From positions 9,787 to 73,786 of IMG/VR virus record IMGVR_UViG_3300015214_000024: DNA of 64,000 nucleotides; one strand, given 5' to 3'. The position numbers and the translations under genes were made by a program. Shown piece by piece: positions 4,719 through 59,184 of the stretch (position 1 is its first letter; the number at the start of each line of letters is the position of its first letter). The stretch is from a virus. Taxonomy: Duplodnaviria > Heunggongvirae > Uroviricota > Caudoviricetes. Below the pieces are notes generated by a model. The model saw nothing but the letters and a program-made list of their open reading frames with translations, did not search any database and was not told where the DNA came from.

Positions 4719-4751
4719 CAACCCGTGTGTAAGAACGTAATCAAGAACACG

Positions 4752-5494: not shown

Positions 5495-5572
5495 GCAGGC
5501 GTAGTGCTCAGTGGCAGAGCCGGGGTCTCTAAAACCCGTCGGTCGTGGGTTCGATGCCCACCGCTTGCACCA
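5495..5572 (+). tRNA. tRNA with anticodon CUA (candidate amber suppressor), CCA encoded; atypical 4-nt spacer between acceptor and D stems
   Basis: acceptor GCAGGCG/CGCTTGC (one G-U), D-arm GCTC-AGTGGCA-GAGC, anticodon loop CUCUAAA, T-arm GTGGG-TTCGATG-CCCAC, A73-CCA, then T5. Confidence 0.5.
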
Positions 5573-24892: not shown

Positions 24893-24906
24893 TTTCAAAT
24901 TCCTCC

Positions 24907-44142: not shown

Positions 44143-44513
44143 TTTACAGTTCCTGCCTTTTAGTTTTATTTATTTTCACAAGATATAGTAAAAAACAGCC
44201 GATTTAAACACAATCAGTAGATTATCTACTACATTTAGTAGTATGACACTACATCTATGTACTACATATAGTAGTGGCTCAAATAATTAAAATTCTTGCA
44301 TTTTTCACGTATCGATACATAGGATTTTTGACATTTTTTACCACATACTATATGTTGTGGTGAATAGTGCTGATTCAACACGATATAGCACAAGATATAG
44401 TAGCTAGATCTAGTTTTTGGCTTATTTCAATTTTTTTTCGTCATATTAGAAAAATCTGTTGACTCGTTCCGGCATTCATATAGAAGGGCTTGGTAATCCA
44501 AGAAGGAATCAAA

Positions 44514-45686: not shown

Positions 45687-45745
45687 GGCTCGAGCCTTTA
45701 TGCTTAATGTGATGATGGTCATTATTGTGGTCATCATCACATTCA
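45676..45745. repeat. two palindromes: AAGGCTCGAGCCTT and 12-bp arms AATGTGATGATG/CATCATCACATT
   Basis: perfect inverted repeats downstream of rnlA stop. Confidence 0.45.
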
Positions 45746-46086
45746 TATTCTAATCTATAAGAGATAATGATTCATTATATCAGATCGAATGTTATCGATC
45801 TGTCAGAGTCAAATGTCGAGTGATCTGTGTGAGTGAATCAGTAAGATGAGTGTATGATTATATTCGAATCAATGGTCCTGCTCAACACCGTATCAAAAAA
45901 TATAAAATTTTTTTCACGGCCCGCAGGCCCATTATACAGTATGAAAAAATACTGTCAATAAAAAAAGGCAAAGAAAATAGAGCTTTATTCACTTTTTTTA
46001 GCAGAATTTCGAACTTTAGTCAATAAAATACGCTGGATGAATACAACTTTTTCATCCAGTCAAACTTTTAGTAATGCGAGGAAAAA

Positions 46087-46160
46087 TGTTGGTCAATGTT
46101 AGTAGATGGTGGCCAATGTTAGTAGGTGTTAGTAGAACAGAGTAGGTGTTAGTAAGTACA
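46087..46160. repeat. iteron cluster: about 5 direct repeats of GTTAGTAG
   Basis: CAATGTTAGTAG x2, GTGTTAGTAG, AGAGTAG, GTGTTAGTAAG. Confidence 0.45.
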
Positions 46161-46244
46161 TTATTATATAGCACGTCTGAAGGAAATATTTCAACCTTGT
46201 TAACGTTATTTTGTAGGGTTAACGAAAAAAAATGAAAAAAGTCA

Positions 46245-46277
46245 TTGACGGCCCTTGGTACATTTTATATAAGGGCG
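46245..46277 (+). promoter_or_regulatory. sigma70-like promoter TTGACG-N17-TATAAG(GGCG)
   Basis: upstream of MoxR-type gene. Confidence 0.4.
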
Positions 46278-46390
46278 ATGTAACGACGCAGATGCACTAA
46301 AAAATTTGCAAAATGCAAAATTAGGTGCTGACGCAGAGTTACCGAATGCGTATAACGCAATTGTTCAACCATTGAGAAGGAAGAAGTTTA

Positions 46391-47512
46391 ATGCGTCCCA
46401 TCGAAGTTTCTGAAGCAATTAGCGTTTACGCTACTGCTAACGTCCCCGTTATGCTGTGGGGACAGCCGGGCGTTGGCAAGTCGGACGTTGTCCGCCAGCT
46501 TGCTGCCAAGACCCCGGGCAAGTTCCTCAACCCGCTGACGGGCAAGAAGGAACGCAAGGTTTTCGACGTTCGCCTCGCACTGCTGGATCCGACCGACCTG
46601 CGCGGCATTCCCTACTACGACCCCGAGATGAAGACCGCCCGCTGGGGCCAGTCCTGCATCCTTCCGATGATGGGCCGTGAGGAAGACGAGGATGCTATCC
46701 TGTTCCTCGACGAGATCAACTCCGCTCCCCCGGTTATCCAGGCAGCCGCTTACCAGCTTGTCCTCGACCGCAAGGTTGGCGAATACGAGCTTCCGAAGGG
46801 CGTGACGATTATCGCTGCTGGTAACCGCCAGTCCGACAAGGGCGTGGTGTTCCAGATGCCCACTCCGCTGCTCAACCGCTTTGCCCACATTGACTTTACG
46901 GTCAGCAACGACGACTGGATCGAATTCGCGGTCGGCGCCGGCATCCACCCCAGCATCATCGGCTTCATCAACTTCAAGAAGGATATGCTCAACAAGTTCG
47001 ACAGCCGTGGCAAGAACTCCGCGTTCGCTACCCCGCGCGCCTGGGCGTTCCTGGACCGCGTTATCCGGGCTGCTGAAGCTGCTGGCACCAAGGACACGAT
47101 GATCCGCAAGCTCGCAGACGGCGTGGTTGGTGAAGGCGCTGCTGTTGAGTTTATGAGCTACCGCAAGTCCGCGGAGAAGCTTCCGAACCCGGACAGCATC
47201 CTCGATGGAACGCTGAAGAAGCTTCCGGAAGATGTCAAGCAGGATATCAGCATCCACTTTGCGCTCGTGACCAGCCTGGTTGCGGCCATCAAGGAACGCT
47301 TCGAGAACGCCAACAAGAACCCCAAGGACGAGAAGTTCGCGAAGGCTGGTGGTAACTTCCTCAAGTTCCTTAACACGGAACTCAAGGACGAGCTGACGCT
47401 GTTTGGCATCCGTTCAGCAATGAAGACTCACCAGGTTATGCTTGCTACTCTTCCCGAGTTCCGCACTGACGTTAACCAGAAGTTCCAGAAGGTGCTCTCA
47501 ATGGTTGGCTAA
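46391..47512 (+). CDS. MoxR/CbbQ/CobS-type AAA+ ATPase (AAA_5)
   Basis: Walker A GQPGVGKS, Walker B ILFLDEIN, sensor AAGN. Confidence 0.8.
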   Translation: MRPIEVSEAISVYATANVPVMLWGQPGVGKSDVVRQLAAKTPGKFLNPLTGKKERKVFDVRLALLDPTDLRGIPYYDPEMKTARWGQSCILPMMGREEDEDAILFLDEINSAPPVIQAAAYQLVLDRKVGEYELPKGVTIIAAGNRQSDKGVVFQMPTPLLNRFAHIDFTVSNDDWIEFAVGAGIHPSIIGFINFKKDMLNKFDSRGKNSAFATPRAWAFLDRVIRAAEAAGTKDTMIRKLADGVVGEGAAVEFMSYRKSAEKLPNPDSILDGTLKKLPEDVKQDISIHFALVTSLVAAIKERFENANKNPKDEKFAKAGGNFLKFLNTELKDELTLFGIRSAMKTHQVMLATLPEFRTDVNQKFQKVLSMVG

Positions 47513-47526
47513 TCCCCAACTATGTT

Positions 47527-47562
47527 GAGGGGTGGGGTTAATTTCTCCACCCCTCCTTTTTT
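47527..47562 (+). terminator. rho-independent terminator GAGGGGTGG...CCACCCCTC-T6
   Basis: 9-bp GC stem plus T-run. Confidence 0.75.
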
Positions 47563-47565
47563 GTA

Positions 47566-47594
47566 TTGACTGAGTTGGCTTGTCACTGTATAAG
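47566..47594 (+). promoter_or_regulatory. sigma70-like promoter TTGACT-N17-TATAAG
   Basis: upstream of vWA gene. Confidence 0.5.
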
Positions 47595-47622
47595 ATAAGT
47601 CTAACAAGCAAAGGAACGCTAA

Positions 47623-48870
47623 ATGAGTAATCCTACCGCATCCGAGATTATGACCGCAGGCCGGTTTTTTATGATGCAGAAGTTTCCGTTCTTCGCTTAC
47701 CTGCTCTTCAACCTCGAAGTTATTGAGCTCGGCGAGGATAACAATCCCTGGAAGCTTCAGACCGCTGCTGTTGACGGAAAGCGCTTCTGGTATAACCCTA
47801 GCTTCATCCAGGAAATTTACCAGGAAGGGCTCAAGGAGAGCAAGGAAATTGGTAACCACAAGGTGGCCTTCCTTTGCGCCCACGAAGTGATGCACTGTGC
47901 CCTTGGTCACTTGGGCCGCCGAATCGACCGCGATCCTGAAATCTGGAACCAGGCGGCAGACTACGCCATCAACGCGATGCTCGTTGAGGCGAAGCTCACT
48001 ATGCCCAAAATTGGTCTGTATGACAAGAAATACAGCGGTTGGTCGGCAGAAGAGATTTATGACGACCTGCTCAAGAATCCGGACAAGACCAAAGGTAAGT
48101 CCACGCTGGACGTTCACGCTGGCCAACCTGGCTTCCCTGGCGAGGGTGATGGCCAGGGCCAGGATCCTAATGGCGGCGGCGACCCGGCTGATGCCCTGAG
48201 CCCTGAAGAGCTTCAGGACCTCAAGGACCAGTGGGAAGAGAATATGGTCCAGGCTGCCCAAAACTGCAAGGACGCTGGTAACATTCCGGCCGGCTTTGAG
48301 CGACTGATCAAGAAGATCACTGAGCCCAAGGTTAAGTGGAACGAATATATCGAGACTGTCATCAAGTCGCTCGTGCGTTCGGACTACACCTGGCGCATTC
48401 CGAACAAGCGGGTGTTCGCTAACGGCATTACTATGCCCAGCTTGGACTATGATGACTCCGTGGAGATTGGCATTGCGATCGATATGAGCGGATCCATTAG
48501 CGACGAAGAAGCGGCTGTTTTCCTTGGGGAAATTAAGTCCATTATGGGACAGTTCACTAACTTCAAGATCCACATCGCTTGCTTCGATAGCGCTCTCCAC
48601 GCGCCCGCAACGCTGGAGAGTGAGGAAGACCTGGATAACTACGAACCCAAGGGCGGTGGCGGTACCACCCCTATGGCGTGGTGGAACTGGGCTATGAAGC
48701 AGGATTGGTACGATACGGTCGGTACTGTGATTATGTTCACGGACGGCTACATTGGTGGTCCAGAGCACTGGGGTCCGGGTGAGGAGAAGAGCCCTAACAC
48801 GATTTGGCTCGTGAAGGGCAGTGACTACGAGGGCCCATACGGTACCACGATCCTCTACGAAAAGCTCTAA
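47623..48870 (+). CDS. vWA-domain protein with N-terminal zincin-like HExxH domain (DUF2201/CobT-like partner of MoxR ATPase)
   Basis: HEVMHCALGH; MIDAS-like IAIDMSGSISDEE. Confidence 0.7.
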   Translation: MSNPTASEIMTAGRFFMMQKFPFFAYLLFNLEVIELGEDNNPWKLQTAAVDGKRFWYNPSFIQEIYQEGLKESKEIGNHKVAFLCAHEVMHCALGHLGRRIDRDPEIWNQAADYAINAMLVEAKLTMPKIGLYDKKYSGWSAEEIYDDLLKNPDKTKGKSTLDVHAGQPGFPGEGDGQGQDPNGGGDPADALSPEELQDLKDQWEENMVQAAQNCKDAGNIPAGFERLIKKITEPKVKWNEYIETVIKSLVRSDYTWRIPNKRVFANGITMPSLDYDDSVEIGIAIDMSGSISDEEAAVFLGEIKSIMGQFTNFKIHIACFDSALHAPATLESEEDLDNYEPKGGGGTTPMAWWNWAMKQDWYDTVGTVIMFTDGYIGGPEHWGPGEEKSPNTIWLVKGSDYEGPYGTTILYEKL

Positions 48871-49049
48871 CGGGCTCTCCATAGGGGCTTTCCCGTGCGC
48901 AAGTTAGCGTGGATGGGGCTGGCAGGTAACTGTCGGCCCCATCGTTTTGGCTTGTGCTTTATCCACAGAAATGCACAACTCGCCCTAAAATACTCATTGA
49001 CTCGTCGTTGGCATCTGCTATGTAGAAGATGCGTAGGAGGCGCACATCA

Positions 49050-49844
49050 ATGGATAATAAAGAATACAGTCTTAAAATTTTGACTAAGACTGGGAGTAAC
49101 ATTTTAGATCCAGATTATTTCGGATATAAGTCGCTGGAAAGGAAGCTCGGACGCGCCCCTATCCTCTCAGATTTTGATCGGTTTAGTCTCAACTCGTATG
49201 CTGAATATCAGGCAATCAATGAGCTCAAAGCCATATTGTCTGATCCCAGCAACACTATTCACATTCGTTTCAACCACGGTGCCCGCGCCGGATCGATTGC
49301 TCGCGTGTCTAACCCTGCTGATATTTTCAGGTCAGATACTACTGGGTATCGTGGCAGCGTTATGTTGGATTGGGATTGCAAGCTGGAAGTCGTCTGGGAC
49401 GACAAGAAAACTTGGAAGTTCAAGTTCACTCGCCACGTTGATGACAAGGTTATTGGTGAAGGCAAGCATCACGATTTCTTGATCAATTACGCCGGGCCTA
49501 GCGTCAAATCCTTTGAAAAGAAGGAACGAGTCGAACTCCCGCCAGCGTATGTTGAAGACGCATATGGTCGTGAAATCCAAGTAGGCACTTGGGTTTTGGA
49601 CAACCGGTTCAAGCTGGGCCGCATTGAGCGGATCAGTCACGCAGGCACCCTGTGGATTGATTTCCTCCAGCAATCTCTTGGATCCAAGTATGCAGTCAAG
49701 GGCCACGTGCAACAGTTTGGGCGTTCCCCTAGGGAATTGCTGGTGATGGAATTGCCTGATGGTTTCGAGACTACTGCAATCATTATGGACAAGGACATTC
49801 GGGATTTCGTAATCACGCCCACATTCAAGTTTGGCTACGAATGA
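49050..49844 (+). CDS. hypothetical protein, paralog of 22393..23076
   Basis: AGGAGG RBS; shared motifs. Confidence 0.55.
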   Translation: MDNKEYSLKILTKTGSNILDPDYFGYKSLERKLGRAPILSDFDRFSLNSYAEYQAINELKAILSDPSNTIHIRFNHGARAGSIARVSNPADIFRSDTTGYRGSVMLDWDCKLEVVWDDKKTWKFKFTRHVDDKVIGEGKHHDFLINYAGPSVKSFEKKERVELPPAYVEDAYGREIQVGTWVLDNRFKLGRIERISHAGTLWIDFLQQSLGSKYAVKGHVQQFGRSPRELLVMELPDGFETTAIIMDKDIRDFVITPTFKFGYE

Positions 49845-50224
49845 CCAAGGAAGAATTCCTTGAGAAATACGAACACCGGAGACCATTCCTAGAATGGTGC
49901 TCCGGTGGGATGGATGGTGGCAATTGCTGGGGTGACGAGGCCACTGAAATCTACCCGGATGAAGAACCCAAAATTGACGATGCCATCTGGGATTTCTTGA
50001 ATCTATTCACAGACAATGTATCTGACCAGGAGTTTGCGGCTATTAAATATGCGCCCGGGCTTGAGGTAGAAAAGGAATGGACAGATAACGAGTATTATGG
50101 TAACTATTACTACCGCCATTCTAAAACTATTGACCTTGAGGTAATTTGGCCCTTCATTGAATTAATCATTGACGTGCCTGAATCAGATGCTAGAAAGGCG
50201 CATTATATTTTGATGGAGGATTGA
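49841..50224 (+). CDS. hypothetical acidic protein (127 aa)
   Basis: ATGA coupling. Confidence 0.5.
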   Translation: MTKEEFLEKYEHRRPFLEWCSGGMDGGNCWGDEATEIYPDEEPKIDDAIWDFLNLFTDNVSDQEFAAIKYAPGLEVEKEWTDNEYYGNYYYRHSKTIDLEVIWPFIELIIDVPESDARKAHYILMED

Positions 50225-50225
50225 T

Positions 50226-50510
50226 ATGAAGAAATACAATCGGAATATCAATGTGAAAATTTACCACTCTGTGGAAGAAATTTATGACTCCGTCAACAAC
50301 GACCCCAAGCGCCCTGGCTTCCAGATAGCTTATCTGGATCGCTCCTCTAACACTAAAACCAAACAAGCCTGGATGCAGCACCTTATTCAAAATGGTTACT
50401 CTGTTGCAGAGATAGCAGAGAAACGGCCCCACCTCGGTAACGAGGAATATGTCGCACTCATCATCAAGGCTGGCCCTGCTGATGTGCTGGCTTTGAAATT
50501 TTGTTTCTGA
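50226..50510 (+). CDS. hypothetical protein (94 aa)
   Basis: coupled. Confidence 0.5.
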   Translation: MKKYNRNINVKIYHSVEEIYDSVNNDPKRPGFQIAYLDRSSNTKTKQAWMQHLIQNGYSVAEIAEKRPHLGNEEYVALIIKAGPADVLALKFCF

Positions 50511-50574
50511 TTTTTGTTGACGCTCGTAGCAAAAACAAATAGACGGGTGGCATAGCAAGCAAGGAGTAATTGAA

Positions 50575-51411
50575 ATGGCACGTATGAATTTCGTTACCGC
50601 AGTCAAGACCGGCCTCACGATCGACCAGATCCGCGAAGCCGCCCCCTCAGTGTTCAACCTTCACGCTCACGAAAGCCGTAGCGAGCGTTACAATGTGGCG
50701 CCCACTGTCGAGGTCGTGGAAGCTATGATGGCTGATGGCTTCAAGGTTGTCCTTGCAGGGCAGCAGCGGAGCCGCTCTGCAGACAAGCTGCTCTTCACTC
50801 GCCACGTGCTGCGCCTCCGTAAAGACGGCGTCCACAGCATCAATGATTGCTTCCCTGAAGTGATCCTCACTAACAGCCACGATGGCTCCTCGAGCTATCG
50901 CCTGATGTTCGGTATGTTCCGCTCGCTTTGCCAGACCCAGCTGTCGGTAGGTGATGCGACGATTGCCGGCCAGAAGGTCACTCATAGCGCCAAGGACACT
51001 GCTGAAAAAGTGGTTGAAGGTGCAAATGATGTGCTGGCCAAGACCCCTGTCCTCAAGGAAGCTATGGACAAGTGGCTGGGTATTGACCTCACGGAGAAGG
51101 AGCAGGAACTCCTTGCCAAGCAGGCACTGACTCTCCACTATGGCGATCGCGTCCCTCCGATTACTGAGCACGAAGTCCTGCGCGCGACTACTCGTTACGA
51201 TGAAGGCGCCAGCCTCTGGAACACCTTTCTCCGGATCCAGAAGAATCTCACGGAGGGCGGCATTGTTTACCAGCGCACTGGTGGTAAGCACAAGCGCGGC
51301 ACCACTCGTGGCATCCGGGGCATTCACCGTAGCCTCCAGTTCAACCGCAAGCTCTGGGACCTGGCATCGGCTACTGCTGAGATGGCGCCGTCTTCGACTC
51401 CAGCAGTATAA
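50575..51411 (+). CDS. DUF932-like phage/plasmid protein
   Basis: NSHDGSSSY signature; AAGGAG RBS. Confidence 0.5.
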   Translation: MARMNFVTAVKTGLTIDQIREAAPSVFNLHAHESRSERYNVAPTVEVVEAMMADGFKVVLAGQQRSRSADKLLFTRHVLRLRKDGVHSINDCFPEVILTNSHDGSSSYRLMFGMFRSLCQTQLSVGDATIAGQKVTHSAKDTAEKVVEGANDVLAKTPVLKEAMDKWLGIDLTEKEQELLAKQALTLHYGDRVPPITEHEVLRATTRYDEGASLWNTFLRIQKNLTEGGIVYQRTGGKHKRGTTRGIRGIHRSLQFNRKLWDLASATAEMAPSSTPAV

Positions 51412-51420
51412 CAATTAAAA

Positions 51421-51447
51421 AGGAGGGTTAACGCCCTCCTTTTTTTC
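51421..51447 (+). terminator. rho-independent terminator AGGAGGG-ttaacg-CCCTCCT-T7
   Basis: stem plus T-run. Confidence 0.75.
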
Positions 51448-51572
51448 TGATCATCCATCTGTTAACTTTACTAATTAACGTTAACAAAAATCAGAAGGTT
51501 TTTTCGTCGCAAAAACAAATTAGGATTGACTCTGCTTCGAATTAGCTTATAACTCTTGAACAAGGAGATTTT

Positions 51573-52313
51573 ATGAGCACCCTCGAACGTTTAAAGGCGC
51601 AGTTCAATGTGATGGAGGATATCGTTGGCAAAGTTGCCTCCGGTAACCTCCGCGGGCTCATCATTACTGGTCCTGCTGGCATTGGTAAAACCTTCAACGT
51701 CCTCAAAACCCTCAAGGATTATCAGCTCTATGTCGCTCCCCTAGCTGGCATCCAGGCTGAGATTGAGGTTTGTGCCGGGCATATGACGACCGTAGGGCTA
51801 GTGCAAGCGCTGTGGCGTAATCGCCAAGAGGCTAACACCTTAGTGCTTGATGATATCGACACTGTGCTTGATACGCTCGATGCTATCAACATTCTCAAGG
51901 CGGCGCTTGATACTGGCAGTCAGCGTCACGTGTCGTATATGACTCAGAATGCTGCATTGCGTAAAGCAGGCATCCCTCAGCATTTCAATTTCAATGGTGC
52001 AATTATCTTGATCACAAACCAGGATATGGAAAATTGCAAGGGCAAGATGGCTCCCCATTTCAAGGCATTGGTGAGCCGCTGCTTCTATTTCGATCTCGGC
52101 TTTGAGGGTCGTGAAGACTGTATGACTTGGATCCAGCACGTTTCCGAAACTACTGGTATGCTGGGTGATGCAAAGAAAACTTCGGATATCCTCCGTTATA
52201 TGCGTCGCAACTTGAAGGACATTCGCGAGCTTAGCTTGCGCACTGCCGTCAAGCTTTCGTCCATTTACGGCAAAGGCTGGAAGGAAGTGGCTGATTTTAC
52301 GGTGTTGACATAG
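51573..52313 (+). CDS. AAA-family ATPase (P-loop NTPase)
   Basis: Walker A GPAGIGKT, Walker B LVLDDID. Confidence 0.6.
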   Translation: MSTLERLKAQFNVMEDIVGKVASGNLRGLIITGPAGIGKTFNVLKTLKDYQLYVAPLAGIQAEIEVCAGHMTTVGLVQALWRNRQEANTLVLDDIDTVLDTLDAINILKAALDTGSQRHVSYMTQNAALRKAGIPQHFNFNGAIILITNQDMENCKGKMAPHFKALVSRCFYFDLGFEGREDCMTWIQHVSETTGMLGDAKKTSDILRYMRRNLKDIRELSLRTAVKLSSIYGKGWKEVADFTVLT

Positions 52314-52361: not shown

Positions 52362-52520
52362 ATGAAGTACAATTATCGCCAGTACGATGAGGAAGATTAC
52401 AGCCTGGGTGATGAATACCGGGATAGTAAGCGTTCCCGTCGTGACAAGCGCGCTCGTGGCAAATATCGCCGCGACTCATTTGAAGGTCGTGATCGCGATG
52501 ATGATTGGGGATGGAACTGA
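52362..52520 (+). CDS. small highly charged Arg/Asp/Tyr-rich peptide (52 aa)
   Basis: AAGGAAAGGAAA RBS; TGATG coupling to next gene. Confidence 0.35.
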   Translation: MKYNYRQYDEEDYSLGDEYRDSKRSRRDKRARGKYRRDSFEGRDRDDDWGWN

Positions 52521-52987
52521 TGGAAATCGTCCCCAGCCCGCCAATTCCAGCCCCTGAGCTGCCACCGGTCAAGGTGTACAAACATCCTTTCCTTATGAGA
52601 ACGATGTTCGCTCTCGGACTGGGTTTGATCGGCGCGGCGATAACTTTCGCATTTGGATACTATTTGGTCCTAGGTGCAGCACCATTGATGATGAACTATG
52701 TCATCACGATGTCTGGTATTGCTTTTGTGCTGATGGGCTCAATGTATTTTTGGATGGATCTCTCCAAGCCTACAGTTACCCTGGAAGAGATGTGGTTCCG
52801 TAAACGCTTGGATCAAGCCCGCCATTGCGACACTCGTGTTGCTCAACTCAAAGCAGACTATGCTTTGCTGGAAGCGGCTGCTGATAGTCTGTATAATTCC
52901 CTAGGCAAGGAAGGCTTTGCAAAGCTGAAGGATGCTGACATCATCAATCACGCTGTCGAACTTGCTCGCAAAAAAACTGTTGACTGA
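52520..52987 (+). CDS. membrane protein (3 TM)
   Basis: hydrophobic helices. Confidence 0.5.
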   Translation: MEIVPSPPIPAPELPPVKVYKHPFLMRTMFALGLGLIGAAITFAFGYYLVLGAAPLMMNYVITMSGIAFVLMGSMYFWMDLSKPTVTLEEMWFRKRLDQARHCDTRVAQLKADYALLEAAADSLYNSLGKEGFAKLKDADIINHAVELARKKTVD

Positions 52988-53041
52988 CATTTCTGCCCTG
53001 CTATAAGGGCAAGGTATTCCACGCTAAACAAAGGATTAGTA

Positions 53042-55354
53042 ATGAAGATTGAAGAAGCAGGCGTTGAGACTTTCTCGCTTGGTCAGAAGGAAGTTTCCGT
53101 TGCCAAGATCCAAGCAAGTGCCAAAGCGTTTGAGATCCTGAGCTCAAGCCTTTATTCCAACAACATTCTCGCAATCATCCGTGAGCTTTCTGCAAATGCG
53201 AAGGACTCGCACAAGGCTGCTGGCTGCCCTGAGAAGCCGTTTGACATTCAGCTGCCCAATAAGCTGGACCCTAGCTTCAAGGTTCGTGACTACGGTGTAG
53301 GTATGGATCATCAATTCGTGATGACTCGCCTGAACACTTACTTCGATTCTACCAAGAACGACAGTAATGAAGAAATCGGCGGCTTCGGTCTCGGCATCAA
53401 GTCAGGCTTCAGCTATACTTCCAGCTATATGATCGTCACATTCGACGGCACGACACGCCGTGTCTACGCTTTCCAGATCGGCGCCAGCGGACTTCCTGAG
53501 ATCAGCTTCCTGGCTGAAACTCCGTCGACTGAGCCTCGCGGTGTTGAGCTCAGCATTCCGGTTATGGACAAGGACTATGACCGCTTCCGCGAAGAAGCTA
53601 TCGAAGCTCTGACGTTCTACGAACCCAAGCCCAACATCAGCGGCGTTGATGCTTCCGCGTTCGACATTAAGCCTTTGTTCCAAGGCACTGGCTGGAAGAT
53701 TTACCAGAATCCTGGCCGCCTCAAGAATGAAAACTATGTCGAGATGGGCAATGTGATCTATCCGGTCATTGAAGAAAACAATCCTTACGACGAATCTCGC
53801 CACTACCGCCACCATCGCCGCGGCCGCGGCGCAGATATGATTATGGTCTATAGCGCCGGCATTGGTGAGATTGACATCACTCCGAACCGCGAGCAGATCA
53901 AGCTGACCGATCGATCCAAGGCCCGAATCACCAAGTTTGAAGAAACGGTAACTGAAGAATTGATGGCCACTATCCAAGGCTGGCTGGATAAGGAAACTGG
54001 TACGCTTTGGGAAGTCCTGCGCGGCGATACGGTGCGCCGTATCCACGACCAGTCCTACTTCTTCGAGAGCCGCAAGGTTGATCTGAAGAAGCTCAAGTAT
54101 AAGGGCTATCAGATTATGGTCGGCGAGTTCCGTTATACTGAAAAGAGCCCGGCTGCTGACAAGGTGGTAAAAGGTCACACCTTGCAAGAGCAGTATGGCG
54201 AGATTCGTATGGATGAGCATCGGATGGCTCATTATGGCATCCAAATCTCAGCCCGGCATTCGGAAAGCGTTGGTATCATTATTGGCACTCCTGGTTGGAC
54301 GGCGAAACTGAACCAAGCCGGCGCTCGTAAGTTGATCAATCAGACAAAGAAGGTGCTTTATCTGCTCGACGTCAAGGCTGCTGATCAGGCCGATGTTATT
54401 GCCGGTCTCAATAAAACCTTCCCGGACTTTGCTGATAACATTTACAATTGGGATGATTTCAAAGCTGGGATCAAGGCAGCCAAGCCGGAAAATGACTACT
54501 ATACTTATGACCTGAAGGATGGTAACTCACGTTATTATAATGAAGGTAATAAGAAGGAGTTCAATATCAAGGACTTCAGCAAGAAGAAGACCATTTATTA
54601 TGGCACGTATAAGCCTAAGGCAAATAACCTTAGGAATTACCATTACAACCGCGAGTCGACGCGAATTCAGGAAATCTTGAGTAGCTGTTATGACGAGACC
54701 TATGATGAGATCCTGGCCAAGCTGAACGGCGAGAAGGTTGTATATGCTTTCCTTGAATCCCAGGTCAAGGAACTGGAAGCTGCAGGATTCAAGCTGGTGG
54801 ACTTTGTTACCACTTTCGAAGAACTGCTCCATCAGGTCGCCGTTGAATTTGCTGCTGAACGTCCTACAATGACGCTGAAGGAATACCTGAAGCCGTTGCA
54901 GGAAAAGAACCCTGAGATTAGCATCTCCACGTTCTACAAGGCAGTGAAGCGTTGGGCCCGCGAATGCGGTATGGAGGACGAGTATCAGCTTCTCCTCAAG
55001 CTGAACGACCCGTCATCATCCTCTTACCGTGCCTCGGCTAATGACCAGCTGTTCCGCCAGGTTCACAAGATGACCATCAAGGAATATGTGAAGAAGCACA
55101 ACCTCAAGCCGGCCAAGCCGACCAGTAACCAGTTCGCGATCGACCTCCGTGACAAGGCCCCGCTGCTCAGCTACTTGATCACTCGCTATAGCGTCCCTGA
55201 TGTTATTGATTATGTGAAGAAGGAAGTGGCTGGTATTGTGAAGGCTCCTGCTCCGGCTGCTACCGTGAAGGCTCCGCCAAAGCGTAAGCCTAGGCCGCAA
55301 CCGGTGGTGATTCAGACCATCAACCCGTTGTCGCTTATCCCGACAGCACAGTAA
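53042..55354 (+). CDS. rIIA: rIIA-like protein (GHKL ATPase N-domain), paralog 1 (770 aa)
   Basis: collinear with T4 rIIA: ASAKAFEILSSSLYSN, IRELSANAKDS (N-box), VRDYGVGM (G1), IGGFGLGIKS (G2). Confidence 0.8.
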   Translation: MKIEEAGVETFSLGQKEVSVAKIQASAKAFEILSSSLYSNNILAIIRELSANAKDSHKAAGCPEKPFDIQLPNKLDPSFKVRDYGVGMDHQFVMTRLNTYFDSTKNDSNEEIGGFGLGIKSGFSYTSSYMIVTFDGTTRRVYAFQIGASGLPEISFLAETPSTEPRGVELSIPVMDKDYDRFREEAIEALTFYEPKPNISGVDASAFDIKPLFQGTGWKIYQNPGRLKNENYVEMGNVIYPVIEENNPYDESRHYRHHRRGRGADMIMVYSAGIGEIDITPNREQIKLTDRSKARITKFEETVTEELMATIQGWLDKETGTLWEVLRGDTVRRIHDQSYFFESRKVDLKKLKYKGYQIMVGEFRYTEKSPAADKVVKGHTLQEQYGEIRMDEHRMAHYGIQISARHSESVGIIIGTPGWTAKLNQAGARKLINQTKKVLYLLDVKAADQADVIAGLNKTFPDFADNIYNWDDFKAGIKAAKPENDYYTYDLKDGNSRYYNEGNKKEFNIKDFSKKKTIYYGTYKPKANNLRNYHYNRESTRIQEILSSCYDETYDEILAKLNGEKVVYAFLESQVKELEAAGFKLVDFVTTFEELLHQVAVEFAAERPTMTLKEYLKPLQEKNPEISISTFYKAVKRWARECGMEDEYQLLLKLNDPSSSSYRASANDQLFRQVHKMTIKEYVKKHNLKPAKPTSNQFAIDLRDKAPLLSYLITRYSVPDVIDYVKKEVAGIVKAPAPAATVKAPPKRKPRPQPVVIQTINPLSLIPTAQ

Positions 55355-55433
55355 AAATAGTTCAATTTAAGGCTTGCAATTGGTGCCCCGTCCTGTATAA
55401 GGGCGGGGTAAACCATTCAACAAGGGATTAGAA

Positions 55434-57608
55434 ATGAAGATTGAAGAGCAGAAGGTTCCCACGTTCAATGTTGGACGCAAGGAAACGGCAGTTGCCTCGA
55501 TCCAGGCCAGTGCGAAGGCTTTTGAAATCCTTAGCTCGGGCCTCTACAGCGATGCTGAGTTTGCCATCGTGCGCGAGATTGCTGCTAACGCTTGGGATAG
55601 CCACAAGGCTGCTGGTTGCCCCGAGAAGCCCTTCAAAGTGCAGGTCCCTAACGGACTTGATCCTCGTTTCTGTGTCCGCGACTACGGCACAAGTATGTCA
55701 CACGAGTTTATGATGACTCGGGTTAACCGCTATTTCGATTCTACGAAGGCGGAAAACAACGACGAAATTGGCGGCTTTGGACTTGGCATCAAGAGTGTGT
55801 TCAGCTATGCCTCCAGCTTTATGATTTCCTGCTATATGGACAGCGTCCGCCGCGTTTATGTTTACCAGATTGGCGAAAGTGGCCTGCCTGAGATCAGCTT
55901 GATGGCTGAGACTGAGACTGACGAGCCAAATGGCGTGGAAGTCAGCATTCCGGTCAAGAGCGAAGACTATCAGAAGTTTTCAATCGCTATCCAGAAAACG
56001 TTTGCCTTTTATAAGGTCAAGCCTGAAATTGCTGGCGTGGAACTGGCCATTCCGGAATTTGACAAGCTTCTGGAAGCTGACGACTGGTTCGTTTGCCGTT
56101 GTCAGAGCATTTTCAATAAGGCTTCTTATATCGAGATGGGCGGCATTGCTTATCCGCTGGACGAACAGCTGACTGGCCTGCGTTCCTATTACAGTAACCA
56201 CCACACTCTGTTCATCAAGGCAGAGATTGGCGATGTTGATATCACTCCGAACCGTGAACAGATCAAGATGACTGAGCGCACTCGCAGATTTGTCAAGGAC
56301 AAGTTGAAGACCATTAACGACCAGGCTGAGAGCATTATCCAGGATCTGATCGATGCCCAAGGCCACACGTATTATTGGGACTTCATTGCTGAAGTGGTCA
56401 AGTATGATATTGATCTGCTCCGCAGCATCGGCTTCTCCAAATCCAAGATCACGTTCAATGGAAAGAAGTTTGACGACAATACGTTCACTATCCGTATTGC
56501 TCCCAAGCCGGCTCCTGAAGATCCAATGGATCCTAATTCGCCGATCAAGCAGCCTACCCTTACGCCGGAAATGGTCGAAGGCATCACCCGCTTTGGTGAA
56601 TGGTCACTGCACGATAGTGGTCGAGTTAAGAAGGATGAAGATCGCTGGAGTTATCAGAATGCTTGGAATTTTGATCGCTTCAACAAGCCGCGTCCGATTG
56701 TGGTCGCTGACGAAGCTTCAGTTCGTCGTATTGCCCCTTGGATGCGTTACAGCGATACTGACAAGATCATCCTGGTCAAAGTCGAGCCCGGTAAGATCAC
56801 TGATGTGATGGCCGCAATCAAGGAGCGTCTTCAGGACTTCAACAACATCCACGATGCTTCCACCGTGCATTTCGAGAAGGCACCGAGGGCTGCGGCTGCT
56901 GAGCGCAAGTATTATATGTACCACACCAGCACTTGGAATGAAGTTGTCCGCAAGGAAATGGATCTCGGTTCACTACCTAATGAGATCTACTATTTCCAGA
57001 CCGATGGCCGCCAGCGTAGTGAAGTGTTTGGCCGCACTACGGACTTTAACAAGGATGCGTCATTCATTGCAGTGGCTAGGACTTGGATCCCGAATGTTAG
57101 CTTTTACTTCCTCACAGAAGCAATGATCAAGAAGATTGAAAAGGCCAATCCTTCGGCAGTTTTGATCGAAACATCTGCCAAGCTGGCTGAAATGCTTGAC
57201 GACAAGGTTCGTGAAGCTGGGCAGAATTATGTTTCCCGCAGCCTTGAGGATATCAAGGCACCATTTGCTCGCTCGGGCGGCAGCTGGCGGACAGCATCTG
57301 CTCTTGACTTTTGGGCCAAAGAGTTCAATTTGTCCGATTATGAACAGGCAAAGAAGGATCTCGAAACCCACAAGCCGGATAGCAGCCTTGAGAAGATGTG
57401 CAAGCTGATCAAAGGCAAGACCATCTTCGAAATGTTCACAGAGCTTGGTGTCAATACGCGCAACGTCACTGTACCGAGCTTTGATAATATGCTGGCAAAG
57501 ATGCCTTATGTCTTTGCAATGGTTGATGACTATTCCGAGGAAGAAGTTGTGAACCATATTGGCGAAACGATGGGCTGGAAAAGAAACACCCAGCCTGTCA
57601 CAATTTGA
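55434..57608 (+). CDS. rIIA: rIIA-like protein, paralog 2 (724 aa)
   Basis: same GHKL motifs; similarity to paralog 1 is strongest in the N-terminal region that was compared. Confidence 0.8.
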   Translation: MKIEEQKVPTFNVGRKETAVASIQASAKAFEILSSGLYSDAEFAIVREIAANAWDSHKAAGCPEKPFKVQVPNGLDPRFCVRDYGTSMSHEFMMTRVNRYFDSTKAENNDEIGGFGLGIKSVFSYASSFMISCYMDSVRRVYVYQIGESGLPEISLMAETETDEPNGVEVSIPVKSEDYQKFSIAIQKTFAFYKVKPEIAGVELAIPEFDKLLEADDWFVCRCQSIFNKASYIEMGGIAYPLDEQLTGLRSYYSNHHTLFIKAEIGDVDITPNREQIKMTERTRRFVKDKLKTINDQAESIIQDLIDAQGHTYYWDFIAEVVKYDIDLLRSIGFSKSKITFNGKKFDDNTFTIRIAPKPAPEDPMDPNSPIKQPTLTPEMVEGITRFGEWSLHDSGRVKKDEDRWSYQNAWNFDRFNKPRPIVVADEASVRRIAPWMRYSDTDKIILVKVEPGKITDVMAAIKERLQDFNNIHDASTVHFEKAPRAAAAERKYYMYHTSTWNEVVRKEMDLGSLPNEIYYFQTDGRQRSEVFGRTTDFNKDASFIAVARTWIPNVSFYFLTEAMIKKIEKANPSAVLIETSAKLAEMLDDKVREAGQNYVSRSLEDIKAPFARSGGSWRTASALDFWAKEFNLSDYEQAKKDLETHKPDSSLEKMCKLIKGKTIFEMFTELGVNTRNVTVPSFDNMLAKMPYVFAMVDDYSEEEVVNHIGETMGWKRNTQPVTI

Positions 57609-57663
57609 TTGACGCATTAAACAAAATGCCGTATTACGGTAGCACCAACTAAGGAGGTTTTGA

Positions 57664-59184
57664 ATGACAATTCTTGCAGTTTCTTTTTCGGGTGGCACGG
57701 AAAAGGCTATCGGTAGCCTTGTAGTCACCACCGACTCCCGAGTGTTTACGCTCACAAATGATCACAAGGATTTCGACGATATCCTTGCTCTGCTCAAGTC
57801 AGGCGATCACGCCCAGGCTGAACTTCGTCTGGACCGCGCTATGCACGTTCGCGCCGCAGTTGCCGACACGGCATTCAGCATTAACGGCAACGTCGTTACT
57901 TACAACGGCCGCCAGTTGCCGGCGGTGATGGCGCAGTACATTATCCGACTCAATACTGAAGGTTTCGACCTCTCGCCGCTCGAGAAGTTCACCGCCAATC
58001 TGTTCGCCAACCCCAGCTATCGCGCCACGCAGGAATGCTTCAAGTTCCTCGAAGCCAATGAGATGCCGATCACGGAAGACGGCTGCTTTATCGCTTACCG
58101 CTCTGTTACGCTGGACTACAAGGATCACCGCACTGGTACGTTCGACAATAGCGTCGGCGCCGTTTGTAAGGAAGACCGCAACCTGGTCGATGAAGATCCG
58201 AACAACACCTGTTCCAAGGGTCTGCACGTTTGCGCTCTCGGCTACATCCACGGCCCTGAATCGCACGGCTACGGCGGCAGCCGTTCGCACTGGGTGATTG
58301 TCAAGGTCAACCCGCGTGATGTGGTCGCTGTACCGCACGATTACAAGAACACCAAGATGCGCGTTTGCGAATTTGAAGTGGTCGGCCAGCTGGACAAGAG
58401 CAAGATCGCTCCTACGGCCAAGAAGTCCTACGCTGAAGACAATGTGGTCTACAAGCCGGCACCGAAGGCTGCTCCTGCTGCTCCAAAGGCTGAATCCGAT
58501 CAGTCGATGATCCAAGCTGGTAAGTTCTACGAACTCGGCCAGAAGCACGCCGCTCGTAATGACGAGCGCGGTAGCGGTGATCCGCTCACGTCGGTCAGCT
58601 TCAATAGCAGCACCAGCTATGAACTTTATATGGCCGGCTACGAAGGTCGTCCCCGACCGACTGCGGTGATGACGGCTGTCCCGGCTGCCGGCGGCAACGC
58701 AGGCATTGCCCGTCAGATGTTCAACGAGGGCCGCTATACTGACCTGATGCGTTTCAAGAAGGAAAAGCGCGTTGGTTTTGGGCGCCTCGGCTTTACGGCT
58801 GCTGAAGAGGCGATCATTGAGCAGAACCGTAATCAGAACGGCACTGTCTCATCGCCTGCCACCTACACCGACTCGCTGGGCTTTATTGTTCCCGCCAAGC
58901 TGGTGTTCGATGCTCACGGCTATGATCAGTTCGGCTTCCGCCGCTCGGGTAAGAACCGCAAGGGACAGACCCGCGGTGATCTTGGCTTTACCCGCACCAC
59001 TGCACCGCTTGCTCAGGTAAGCACCACAATCGCTTCGCCGGCTGCTACTTCTAATCAGTCAGCCAAGTATCAGGAAGGCTACCGTGATGGTCAGGCTGCT
59101 ACCAGCTTCAAGCCTCTCCAGGTTGGTAATGAATACTGGTCAGGCTACACGGCTGCTTGGAATGTGAATCCGAATCGCAAGTAA
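57664..59184 (+). CDS. rIIB: rIIB-like protein with long low-complexity C-terminal extension (506 aa)
   Basis: ITEDGCFIAYRSV..TFDNSVG..CSKGLHVC..VKVNPRDVVAVPHDY..KMRVCEFEVV matches T4 rIIB core. Confidence 0.75.
   Translation: MTILAVSFSGGTEKAIGSLVVTTDSRVFTLTNDHKDFDDILALLKSGDHAQAELRLDRAMHVRAAVADTAFSINGNVVTYNGRQLPAVMAQYIIRLNTEGFDLSPLEKFTANLFANPSYRATQECFKFLEANEMPITEDGCFIAYRSVTLDYKDHRTGTFDNSVGAVCKEDRNLVDEDPNNTCSKGLHVCALGYIHGPESHGYGGSRSHWVIVKVNPRDVVAVPHDYKNTKMRVCEFEVVGQLDKSKIAPTAKKSYAEDNVVYKPAPKAAPAAPKAESDQSMIQAGKFYELGQKHAARNDERGSGDPLTSVSFNSSTSYELYMAGYEGRPRPTAVMTAVPAAGGNAGIARQMFNEGRYTDLMRFKKEKRVGFGRLGFTAAEEAIIEQNRNQNGTVSSPATYTDSLGFIVPAKLVFDAHGYDQFGFRRSGKNRKGQTRGDLGFTRTTAPLAQVSTTIASPAATSNQSAKYQEGYRDGQAATSFKPLQVGNEYWSGYTAAWNVNPNRK

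What the first reader, a model, noticed from the sequence alone, without database searches (positions are those of the whole stretch)
46391..52313. MoxR-type AAA+ ATPase with a vWA/zincin partner, then DUF932 and a second AAA ATPase, directly upstream of duplicated rIIA-rIIB
The AAA_5 (MoxR/CbbQ/CobS-like) ATPase is paired with a vWA-domain protein that carries an N-terminal HExxH metallopeptidase-like domain. This is a known two-component chaperone-like module whose function in phages is not established. It is followed by a DUF932 protein (NSHDGSS motif) and another Walker-A/B ATPase, and all lie immediately upstream of the rII anti-exclusion genes. The co-location suggests a larger host-takeover or anti-exclusion module rather than a structural one. 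Three sigma70-like promoters and three terminators partition the block.
Basis: partly seen in the sequence, partly recalled or inferred. Interest (0 to 1): 0.6.

Follow-up and report, generated by a model that had tools for sequence, protein, structure and literature searches.

The report
Phage AAA+ ATPase with protease-vWA partner
This block holds an already-described, very widespread two-gene phage module: an AAA+ motor ATPase followed by a zinc-peptidase/vWA partner, whose function is still unknown. The other genes around it (DUF932, a T4 NrdC.10-like ATPase, rII) are separately transcribed neighbours rather than parts of one larger system.

Summary
The genes and motifs are real. They are an AAA_5/MoxR-clade ATPase (46391-47512), a DUF2201_N zincin + DUF2201 vWA protein (47623-48870), a DUF932 protein (50575-51411) and a second P-loop ATPase (51573-52313), which is a homologue of T4 NrdC.10.

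Two corrections: downstream lie two diverged rIIA paralogs plus one rIIB, not a duplicated rIIA-rIIB pair. Two small genes separate them from the block.

Terminator-promoter cassettes do partition the block and are conserved in relatives.

The ATPase-then-zincin/vWA pair is the only conserved unit. In 154 phage, metagenome and bacterial loci holding both genes, the ATPase lies upstream on the same strand in 151. It corresponds to N4 gp24/gp25, which are core genes of N4-like phages, and to the jumbo-phage MoxR-peptidase/vWA pair described in 2021. It is not CobS/CobT.

DUF932 lies near the pair only in this clade. NrdC.10 sits elsewhere in T4-like phages. rII is loosely co-resident in three lineages and absent near the pair in most others.

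Most likely mechanism (inferred): a midasin-like AAA+ ring plus MIDAS adaptor that remodels and cleaves a protein substrate early in infection. This is a new member of a known kind, of modest interest.

The parts
46245..46273 (+). Sigma-70-like promoter upstream of the ATPase gene (TTGACG-N17-TATAAG). A second, degenerate copy (CTGACG ... TATAAC) follows at about 46320-46350.
   Evidence: Pattern search. The -35 and -10 blocks are conserved in relatives L002, L005 and L090.
46391..47512 (+). AAA_5 / MoxR-clade AAA+ ATPase, 373 aa. Walker A is G24-S31 (46460-46483). Walker B is D107-E108 (46709-46714). Sensor-1 N145, R163 and R216 are also present.
   Evidence: Pfam AAA_5 at 39.2 bits and PHROG 1297 at E 3e-93. 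These residues are invariant in 27 homologues. The closest solved sequences by profile are midasin AAA modules, E 4e-17.
47527..47555 (+). Intrinsic terminator after the ATPase gene: 11-bp GC-rich stem followed by a T run.
   Evidence: It is conserved in three relatives with different but still pairing stem sequences.
47566..47594 (+). Sigma-70-like promoter for the zincin-vWA gene (TTGACT-N17-TATAAG).
   Evidence: TTGACT and TATA are conserved in relatives.
47623..48870 (+). Zincin (DUF2201_N) + vWA (DUF2201) protein, 415 aa. HExxH lies at 47881-47895. The MIDAS DxSGS motif lies at 48481-48495.
48912..48943 (+). Intrinsic terminator after the zincin-vWA gene: 14-bp stem. A weak promoter-like site follows at 48962-48991; relatives have TTGACT at that position.
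49029..50510 (+). Three clade-restricted genes of unknown function (271, 127 and 94 aa). By position they share a transcription unit with DUF932.
   Evidence: No Pfam, NCBIfam or PADLOC hits. The 271-aa protein has only 15 relatives among 1.84 billion representative proteins. Within the clade they are 28-59% identical, against 73-88% for the pair.
50575..51411 (+). DUF932 protein, 278 aa, with the NSHDG motif.
51417..51444 (+). Intrinsic terminator after DUF932 (GGAGGG-TTAACG-CCCTCC followed by T7). It is palindromic, so the scan reported it on the minus strand.
51526..51553 (+). Sigma-70-like promoter for the NrdC.10-like gene (TTGACT-N16-TATAAC).
51573..52313 (+). T4 NrdC.10-family P-loop ATPase, 246 aa. 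It lacks about 80 N-terminal residues of the T4-type protein.
   Evidence: PHROG 1250 E 5e-72, matching profile positions 83-326 of 327. tblastn finds 1299 phage records, annotated nrdC.10 in several.
52362..52987 (+). A 52-aa highly charged ORF overlapping (TGATG) the start of a membrane protein of about 155 aa. These lie between the block and rII.
   Evidence: The same two genes are called in relatives L090 and L091.
53042..59184 (+). Neighbours, not part of the module: rIIA (53042-55354), a second rIIA paralog (55434-57608) and rIIB (57664-59184). A promoter-like site lies at 52980-53007.
   Evidence: PHROG 612 E 4e-107 and 2e-114; rIIB PHROGs E 1.5e-61. The two rIIA paralogs are 32% identical. 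Promoter-like site.

Best explanation
The functional unit is the two-gene pair only.

Proposed mechanism:
- The 373-aa AAA_5/MoxR-clade ATPase forms an ATP-driven ring.
- The 415-aa partner docks on it through its C-terminal vWA domain.
- The metal-bound MIDAS site of the vWA domain grips a carboxylate on a protein substrate.
- ATP hydrolysis pulls on or remodels that substrate, in the way midasin, CbbQ-CbbO and NorQ-NorD act on their targets.
- The N-terminal gluzincin-type HExxH peptidase then cuts the substrate, or processes the adaptor itself.
- In effect this would be a split, substrate-targeted AAA+ metalloprotease or remodelling machine.

In this phage both genes are transcribed early by host RNA polymerase. 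Each has its own sigma-70-like promoter and its own terminator, which may let the two proteins be made in different amounts. The substrate is unknown. From timing and neighbours I favour a non-virion target, either a host protein or an early phage protein complex.

DUF932, the three small genes, the NrdC.10-like ATPase and rIIA/rIIA'/rIIB are independent early accessory genes. They share the same strand and region in this clade only.

Shown here: domains, invariant catalytic residues, gene order conserved across phages and cells, and transcription signals.
Inferred: complex formation, proteolysis, timing of expression and the class of substrate.
For: 1. Both active sites are under selection.
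- Walker A/B, sensor and arginine residues are invariant in 27 ATPase homologues.
- HExxH and all five MIDAS residues are invariant in 35 partner homologues.

2. The pairing is obligate.
- 154 loci from phages, metagenomes, bacteria and one archaeal MAG hold both genes.
- In 151 the ATPase is upstream on the same strand, with a median gap of 177 bp.
- The two proteins' identities to the window copies co-vary (r = 0.96), though most of that reflects the split between close and distant relatives.
- Host breakdowns of the 852 and 772 phage records are nearly identical.

3. Mechanistic analogues.
- The closest solved sequences to the ATPase family are midasin AAA modules, E 4e-17.
- The vWA model matches MIDAS/vWA domains, including midasin-MIDAS, NorD and BchD.
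- The peptidase region matches MJ1213 (PDB 4qhf), E 6e-4. From my own knowledge this is the active minigluzincin 'selecase'.

4. Early, non-structural setting here.
- Conserved TTGAC-N17-TATAA promoters and terminators flank each gene.
- Neighbours are Rnl1, Rnl2, NrdC.10 and rII.
- N4 gp24/gp25 are middle transcripts and 2 of the 14 core genes of N4-like phages (PMC4193335).
- In many other lineages the pair sits beside replication or nucleotide-metabolism genes: RNase H/FEN, QueE and GTP cyclohydrolase; helicase and polymerase; dCTP deaminase and ThyX.
- The metagenomic phage loci L007 and L009 carry the pair as well as their own T4-type prohead protease and capsid genes. A second protease for head maturation is therefore not obviously needed.
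Against: - No member of this family has been studied biochemically, as far as the searched literature shows.
- Peptidase activity, ring formation and the ATPase-vWA contact are all inferred. No multimer prediction could be run.
- Promoter timing is inferred from sequence alone.
- In Rak2-like GAP32 the pair directly follows tail sheath, tail tube and other virion genes.
- The PA5oct record flags its ATPase as detected by ESI-MS/MS, in a study that reports 93 virion-associated proteins. Both points fit a morphogenetic role better.
- A Bacillus phage 0305phi8-36 deletion removing its MoxR-like and vWA-like genes is viable, with a growth defect (PMC3357382). The function is therefore dispensable in at least one phage.
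- Stand-alone copies in ordinary bacterial chromosomal contexts give no clue to the substrate.
Confidence: 0.5

Rival explanations
1. Virion-assembly chaperone and protease, as proposed by Iyer et al. 2021. The MoxR-vWA pair would assist assembly of head or tail structures, and the fused peptidase would process structural proteins. The precedent is the MoxR/vWA pair p618/p892 in tail development of Acidianus two-tailed virus.
For: - The proposal is stated in PMC7824862.
- In GAP32 the pair lies immediately after tail sheath, tail tube, head completion and virion genes.
- The PA5oct ATPase is flagged as MS-detected in a study of virion-associated proteins.
- In RPP1-type N4-like roseophages, virion protein genes lie near the gp24/gp25 homologues.
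Against: - Here and in close relatives the genes have conserved sigma-70-like early promoters and lie among RNA ligases, NrdC.10 and rII, with no structural gene nearby.
- N4 gp24/gp25 are middle genes, not late genes.
- L007 and L009, which carry the pair, also have a T4-type prohead protease.
- Stand-alone copies exist in bacterial chromosomes without phage genes around them.
Confidence: 0.22
2. The pair, DUF932, the second ATPase and rII would together form one host-takeover or anti-exclusion module that works as a unit.
For: - All genes are on one strand in a region rich in early promoters, and the whole order is kept in clade members at 78-96% identity.
- rIIA-rIIB lie 0.9-6 kb downstream of the ATPase or the pair in Vequintavirus RudolfGeigy, N4-like Moo19 and Litunavirus YH30.
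- An NrdC.10-like gene lies about 1.5-2.5 kb upstream of the pair in one further metagenomic clade of 7 loci.
Against: - Separate promoters and terminators partition the block.
- Distributions are very unequal: 27 phage records for DUF932 against about 800 for the pair, 1299 for NrdC.10 and 2924 for rIIA.
- No DUF932 lies near the pair in about 170 other loci.
- No rII lies within about 10 kb in PA5oct, GAP32, Iguana, 4MG, Aeromonas 4L372XY, L007-L009 or the 80 IMG/VR loci. The tblastn control did detect rIIA at 24-28% identity.
- NrdC.10 of T4-type phages lies in the nrdC block.
- Synteny within a clade this closely related carries no functional weight.
Confidence: 0.1
3. CobS/CobT-like or Mg-chelatase-like metal-insertion module. 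The pair would load a metal into a tetrapyrrole or an enzyme cofactor.
For: - Architecture is similar: an AAA_5-type ATPase plus a vWA partner.
- There is a weak P-loop-only match to PHROG 249 'porphyrin biosynthesis' (E 7e-7, 28 residues).
- BchD appears among the structural vWA matches.
Against: - No CobS_N, CobT, CobT_C or CbbQ_C Pfam hits and no NCBIfam CobS/CobT equivalog hits.
- The partner carries an invariant HExxH peptidase domain that chelatase subunits lack.
- No tetrapyrrole or cobalamin genes were seen in any neighbourhood examined.
Confidence: 0.03

Closest known systems
Phage N4 gp24 / gp25 (core gene pair of N4-like phages, Schitoviridae); PHROG 1297 + PHROG 1314
   Same: Same two families in the same order and orientation: ATPase, then zincin-vWA. 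PHROG matches are E 3e-93 and 5e-100. tblastn finds the pair in N4-like genomes. gp24/gp25 are middle genes and core genes. Function is unknown in both cases.
   Different: Identity is only about 25-32%. In N4-like phages the pair sits between the RNAP II genes and the replication genes. Here it lies between RNA ligase 1 and clade-specific genes, and each gene has its own promoter and terminator.
MoxR AAA+ / (metallopeptidase-vWA) chaperone-cochaperone pair of group 2.2 jumbo phages (Iyer et al. 2021, PMC7824862)
   Same: Identical domain architecture. The jumbo phages named there and related ones (Atu_ph07, Rak2-like, PA5oct, phage G) are among the best tblastn matches, at 30-42%.
   Different: That paper proposes virion assembly. 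The context here is early and non-structural. The present clade is a new lineage: no near DNA match in 50,697 phage records and no close relatives in IMG/VR.
Midasin (Rea1/Mdn1): an AAA_5 ring with a MIDAS domain
   Same: The closest solved sequence relatives of the ATPase family, E 4e-17. Its MIDAS domain is among the structural matches of the vWA domain. The working principle is the one proposed here: a MIDAS site grips a substrate carboxylate and the AAA ring supplies force (established knowledge of midasin).
   Different: Midasin is a single 5000-residue eukaryotic polypeptide with six fused AAA modules and no peptidase. Here a 373-aa single-module ATPase and a separate partner are involved. 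This is an analogy of mechanism, not membership.
Bacterial MoxR-vWA pairs: CbbQ-CbbO, NorQ-NorD, RavA-ViaA, BchI-BchD, CobS-CobT
   Different: None of these partners has an N-terminal HExxH peptidase. There are no CbbQ_C, CobS_N or CobT domains here and no equivalog hits. RavA, CbbQ and NorQ are not among the profile's PDB hits at E of 0.01 or better.
Selecase (MJ1213) and other minigluzincins / M48-type gluzincins
   Same: The HExxH-containing helix region of the family profile matches MJ1213 at E 6e-4, and an M48 peptidase weakly.
   Different: The match covers only about 50 residues. The window protein has a much larger helical domain and a fused vWA domain.
T4 NrdC.10
   Same: 38-39% identity over 98% of the 246-aa protein, and PHROG 1250 at E 5e-72. 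Both are P-loop ATPases of unknown function.
   Different: The window protein lacks about 80 N-terminal residues of the T4-type protein. In T4-type genomes the gene lies in the nrdC.2-nrdC.11 block, not near rII or a MoxR pair.
DUF932 (PF06067) / TIGR03299 phage-plasmid proteins
   Same: Pfam E 1.3e-31 with the conserved NSHDG motif. About 35-41% identical homologues occur in other phages and bacteria, for example Pantoea and Eleftheria.
   Different: It scores far below the TIGR03299 cut-off (18 bits against 110.7), so it belongs to another subfamily. DUF932 is rare in sequenced phages (27 records).

Membership tests
AAA_5 / MoxR-clade AAA+ ATPase | Pfam AAA_5 match above the curated cut-off | tested here: met
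   39.2 bits against a cut-off of 22, covering profile positions 1-139 of 139.
AAA_5 / MoxR-clade AAA+ ATPase | Intact Walker A, Walker B, sensor-1, arginine finger and sensor-2 residues | tested here: met
   G24 P26 G27 G29 K30 S31, D107 E108, N145, R163 and R216 are invariant in 27 homologues.
AAA_5 / MoxR-clade AAA+ ATPase | A vWA-domain partner encoded next to it | tested here: met
   The partner starts 110 bp downstream here. In 151 of 154 loci holding both genes the ATPase is upstream on the same strand.
AAA_5 / MoxR-clade AAA+ ATPase | Hexameric ring with ATPase activity | not testable with these tools
   Requires biochemistry or a multimer prediction.
DUF2201_N + DUF2201 (zincin-vWA; N4 gp25-like; PHROG 1314) | Both Pfam domains above cut-off, in N-to-C order | tested here: met
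   137.5 bits (cut-off 23.2) for residues 11-273 and 49 bits (cut-off 26.4) for residues 284-410. PHROG 1314 E 5e-100.
DUF2201_N + DUF2201 (zincin-vWA; N4 gp25-like; PHROG 1314) | HExxH zinc-binding and catalytic motif | tested here: met
   H87 E88 H91 are invariant and H96 is nearly invariant. The profile matches the minigluzincin MJ1213. Catalysis itself was not tested.
DUF2201_N + DUF2201 (zincin-vWA; N4 gp25-like; PHROG 1314) | vWA fold with a complete MIDAS motif (DxSxS...T...D) | tested here: met
CobS/CobT aerobic cobaltochelatase | CobS_N / CobT / CobT_C domains or NCBIfam equivalog matches | tested here: not met
   No such hits in Pfam or NCBIfam. There is only a 28-residue P-loop match to PHROG 249.
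CobS/CobT aerobic cobaltochelatase | Association with cobalamin or tetrapyrrole genes | tested here: not met
   None in the window or in any examined neighbourhood.
MoxR-vWA-beta-propeller ternary conflict systems (Kaur et al. 2020) | bpMoxR-type ATPase plus VMAP / beta-propeller third component | tested here: not met
   bpMoxR scores 17.4 bits, below the cut-off of 27, over 44 residues only. No third conserved component was found. PADLOC gave only P-loop-level hits.
DUF932 (PF06067) | Pfam match above cut-off and the conserved NSHDG motif | tested here: met
   110.6 bits against a cut-off of 23. N100 S101 H102 D103 G104 are invariant in 32 sequences.
T4 NrdC.10 family (PHROG 1250) | Full-length similarity to annotated nrdC.10 products, with Walker A and B motifs | tested here: met
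   E 5e-72 to PHROG 1250. 38-39% identity over 98% of the query to nrdC.10 of PEi20 and Acj61. The N-terminal 80 or so residues of the family are absent.
One conserved multi-gene module (pair + DUF932 + NrdC.10 + rII) | Co-occurrence and linkage of the components outside the immediate clade | tested here: not met
   DUF932 is never near the pair elsewhere. NrdC.10 lies near the pair in only one other clade. rII is within 6 kb in 3 lineages and absent within about 10 kb in the other sampled lineages and in the 80 IMG/VR loci.

The most novel reading that the evidence does not exclude
The pair could be a phage counter-defence machine. The MIDAS site would capture a host abortive-infection, exclusion or membrane-stress protein. 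The AAA+ ring would extract or unfold it and the fused gluzincin would destroy it. Its recurrent, co-directional residence a few kb upstream of rIIA/rIIB, seen in this clade, in N4-like phages and in Vequintavirus, would then reflect cooperation in protecting the infected cell envelope from host-triggered collapse. Nothing found here excludes this. The early promoters and the non-structural setting are compatible with it.
Probability: 0.12. Interest if true: 0.75.

Novelty: new member of a known kind. Interest (0 to 1): 0.3.

Why it matters
The ATPase plus zincin-vWA pair is one of the most widely conserved phage gene pairs of unknown function. It is found in about 800 sequenced phages, is a core pair in N4-like phages, and occurs in many jumbo phages and in thousands of metagenomic proteins. 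It also has stand-alone copies in bacteria.

This window adds a divergent lineage and clean evidence that the two genes can be separate early transcription units. It also shows that the pair, and not the surrounding genes, is the unit to study.

It does not by itself reveal the function. That question is better addressed in tractable phages such as N4 or the BASEL Vequintavirus isolates.

Practical by-product: PHROG 1314 is labelled 'HNH endonuclease', and this wrong name is propagating through GenBank phage records.

Tried and rejected
- Near-identity DNA search of the block against 50,697 phage records: no match.
- Close-relative scan of IMG/VR with the ATPase: nothing. Relatives came instead from the protein collection.
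- PADLOC and NCBIfam scans of all eight proteins: only P-loop-level or sub-threshold hits.
- Sequence search of the PDB with single proteins: nothing useful for the partner, DUF932 or NrdC.10. Profile searches worked better.
- Whether the nSTAND3/AAA proteins sitting between Rnl1 and Rnl2 in L007 and L009 are NrdC.10 homologues, which would have tied NrdC.10 to RNA repair: no detectable similarity.
- Whether the 271-aa protein matches the gene next to DUF932 in another phage (L092): no.
- DUF932 fold:
  - Foldseek against the PDB found nothing at E below 0.08.
  - No function could be assigned.
- An RNA-repair link for the pair.
  - RNA ligases lie nearby here and in L007, L009 and Iguana.
  - They are absent from the 80 IMG/VR loci and from the other phages sampled.
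  - I treat this as co-residence of early genes.
- Cellular neighbourhoods in Comamonas, Cohnella, Arachnia and an Acidobacteriota MAG: no conserved informative neighbour.
- Literature searches for experimental data on DUF2201, on N4 gp24/gp25, on nrdC.10, and in the PA5oct, phage G and CRISPRi-ART papers: nothing on function.
- Rfam search of the 700-bp intergenic region upstream of the ATPase: no credible match.

Full report
**What is in the sequence**

Between 46391 and 52313 all genes read on the + strand.

| Coordinates | Size | Identity | Evidence |
|---|---|---|---|
| 46391-47512 | 373 aa | AAA_5 ATPase | 39.2 bits, cut-off 22; PHROG 1297 E 3e-93 |
| 47623-48870 | 415 aa | DUF2201_N 'putative metallopeptidase' + DUF2201 'VWA-like' | E 8.5e-40 and 8e-13; PHROG 1314 E 5e-100 |
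| 49029-50510 | 271, 127, 94 aa | three genes with no family | |
| 50575-51411 | 278 aa | DUF932 | E 1.3e-31 |
| 51573-52313 | 246 aa | P-loop ATPase | PHROG 1250 E 5e-72 |

- The 246-aa ATPase is 38-39% identical over 98% of its length to genes annotated nrdC.10 in T4-type phages.
- A 52-aa charged ORF and a membrane protein follow. Then come rIIA, a second rIIA paralog (32% identical over the full length) and one rIIB.
- The title's 'duplicated rIIA-rIIB' and 'directly upstream' are therefore inexact. The domain calls are right.
- Upstream lie an Rnl2-like and an Rnl1-like RNA ligase.

**Transcription signals**

- The strict consensus scan finds no excess of promoters (8 found, 8.1 expected). 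It does find three strong terminators, directly after the ATPase, the partner and DUF932.
- A relaxed pattern, TTGACN-N16-18-TAYAWN, hits 17 times in the window against 1.8 in shuffles.
- The + strand hits in the block sit just before the ATPase, the partner, NrdC.10 and rIIA-1.
- Alignments with relatives at 78-96% protein identity show that the terminator-promoter cassettes after the ATPase and after the partner are conserved. Their stems differ in sequence but still pair.
- It means that even the two genes of the pair are separate units with host-type, presumably early, promoters.

**The pair is the conserved unit**

- tblastn finds the ATPase in 852 phage records and the partner in 772, with nearly identical host breakdowns.
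- Lineages include N4-like podoviruses, Vequintavirinae, Rak2-like and other jumbo phages, PA5oct, phage G and Atu_ph07.
- I collected the following loci:
  - 80 IMG/VR loci;
  - metagenomic contigs carrying closer and more distant homologues;
  - annotated phage regions;
  - 80 loci from bacterial and archaeal genomes.
- Of 154 loci holding both genes, 151 have the ATPase upstream on the same strand, with a median gap of 177 bp.
- The exceptions are Vequintavirinae-type divergent arrangements and one MAG.
- The pair also occurs in cultured Comamonas, Acidovorax, Cohnella and Arachnia, in ordinary chromosomal surroundings.

**The pair is already in the literature**

- Iyer et al. 2021 describe a MoxR AAA+ / vWA pair with an N-terminal metallopeptidase in group 2.2 jumbo phages. 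They propose virion assembly with proteolytic processing (PMC7824862).
- N4 gene 24 (unknown) and gene 25 (vWFA domain) are 2 of the 14 core genes of N4-like phages and are middle transcripts (PMC4193335).
- A Bacillus phage 0305phi8-36 deletion that removes its MoxR-like and vWA-like genes is viable with a growth defect (PMC3357382).
- No functional study was found.

**The rest of the block is not part of it**

- DUF932 occurs in only 27 phage records.
- In the Rak2-like phages that carry both, DUF932 is about 100 kb from the pair.
- A DUF932 profile finds no copy in any other collected locus.
- NrdC.10 homologues occur in 1299 records, mostly T4-type phages that lack the pair. There the gene lies in the nrdC.2-nrdC.11 block.
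- NrdC.10 lies near the pair in one other metagenomic clade only (7 loci whose ATPases are 83-100% identical to one another).
- The three small genes are clade-restricted and evolve fast. The 271-aa protein has 15 relatives among 1.84 billion representatives.
- The complete order is kept only in close relatives, which says nothing about function.

**rII**

Linkage is not zero.

| Phage | Arrangement |
|---|---|
| Vequintavirus RudolfGeigy | MoxR ATPase - hypothetical - cell-wall hydrolase - rIIA - rIIB |
| N4-like Moo19 | rIIA/rIIB about 4 kb downstream of the pair |
| Litunavirus YH30 | rIIA/rIIB about 6 kb downstream of the pair |

- No rII lies within about 10 kb of the pair in PA5oct, GAP32, Iguana, 4MG, Aeromonas 4L372XY, L007-L009 or the 80 IMG/VR loci.
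- The same tblastn queries did detect the known rIIA genes at 24-28% identity, so the negative results are meaningful.
- I read this as loose co-residence of early and middle genes. A proper permutation test is listed among the next steps.

**Mechanism**

- All ATPase motifs are invariant across 27 homologues.
- HExxH and the five MIDAS residues are invariant across 35 partner homologues. Both activities are therefore under selection.
- The family profile of the ATPase is closest to midasin AAA modules among solved structures, E 4e-17. RavA, CbbQ and NorQ do not appear at E of 0.01 or better.
- The partner's modelled C-terminal domain (pLDDT 82) matches vWA/MIDAS domains, including midasin-MIDAS, NorD and BchD.
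- The HExxH region matches the minigluzincin MJ1213 (PDB 4qhf) at E 6e-4.
- The best-supported reading is a split, substrate-directed AAA+ remodelling and proteolysis machine:
  - MIDAS grips the substrate;
  - the ring pulls on it;
  - the gluzincin cuts it.
- Complex formation, proteolysis and the substrate are all inferred.
- Timing and neighbours here favour a non-virion target. These include the N4 middle-gene status and the replication or nucleotide-metabolism neighbours in many lineages.
- The GAP32 context next to tail genes, and the MS flag on the PA5oct ATPase, keep the assembly hypothesis alive.
- CobS/CobT is excluded as a family assignment.

**DUF932 and NrdC.10**

- The DUF932 model is confident (pLDDT 88, pTM 0.86) but has no close solved relative.
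- Its invariant residues H77, H102, C119 and H137 hint at a metal site. I assign no function.
- One preprint reports selection on a DUF932 gene of an integrated plasmid after phage exposure.
- NrdC.10 remains an uncharacterised ATPase.

**Verdict**

- The pair is a new, divergent member of a known and widespread module whose function is unsolved.
- Interest is modest. The open question, what N4 gp24/gp25-type pairs do, is real, but this window does not make it more testable.

Noticed in passing
window 53042-57608: Two tandem rIIA paralogs, 32% identical over their full length, precede a single rIIB. The arrangement is kept across the clade (L002, L005, L090, L091). Tandem rIIA looks rare: the rIIA query found 2934 places in 2924 phage records.
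   Followed up: partly
window 5495-5572: ARAGORN calls a tRNA with a CTA (amber-reading) anticodon, labelled 'Pyl', directly after an HNH endonuclease ORF (4725-5492). Rfam at gathering threshold does not confirm it as a tRNA. ORFs in the studied region look normal under the standard code.
   Followed up: no
window 45687-46390: A 700-bp intergenic region lies upstream of the ATPase gene. It holds a perfect-consensus minus-strand promoter (45958-45931, TTGACA-16-TATAAT) that is conserved in relatives and is followed by a short hairpin. It also holds TGTTAGTAG repeats phased at 10, 20 and 30 nt (46086-46157). There is no Rfam match and no explanation.
   Followed up: partly
window 24218-24982 (-): A Bax1-I / BI-1 family membrane protein (Pfam E 6.6e-52) encoded by the phage. 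From my own knowledge, bacterial members such as YccA modulate the AAA+ zinc protease FtsH. N4-like Moo19 encodes an SPFH/HflC-like protein near its pair.
   Followed up: no
window 41800-42990 (-) and 44490-45686 (+); L007, L009, L097: Rnl2-like and Rnl1-like RNA ligases lie just upstream of the pair. RNA ligases, and in two cases a kinase or phosphatase, also lie within 3-9 kb of the pair in L007, L009 and Klebsiella phage Iguana. They are absent from the other loci.
   Followed up: partly
window 52362-52987: A 52-aa Arg/Asp-rich ORF ends in TGATG, overlapping the ATG at 52520 of the downstream membrane protein. The true start of that protein is therefore probably 52520 (155 aa), not the TTG at 52505. 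Both genes are conserved in L090 and L091.
   Followed up: partly
GenBank phage records under hits H47-H80 and H176-H214: The zincin-vWA protein is widely annotated as 'HNH endonuclease' or 'homing endonuclease', following the label of PHROG 1314. No HNH domain is detectable and Pfam gives only DUF2201_N + DUF2201. This looks like a propagating mis-annotation.
   Followed up: yes
L127 7059-7940 (Acidobacteriota chromosome); probably also the Comamonas and Acidovorax loci: In some cellular copies a DUF3150 gene is inserted between the ATPase and the zincin-vWA gene, giving a three-gene version. The gap of about 1 kb in the Comamonas and Acidovorax loci suggests the same arrangement there.
   Followed up: no
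Contigs of the clade (P0242 and others): Proteins of this clade occur on contigs up to 207 kb, so the phage may be a jumbo phage. It has no near relative among sequenced phages: the best rIIA matches are 33-37% identical over half the protein.
   Followed up: no
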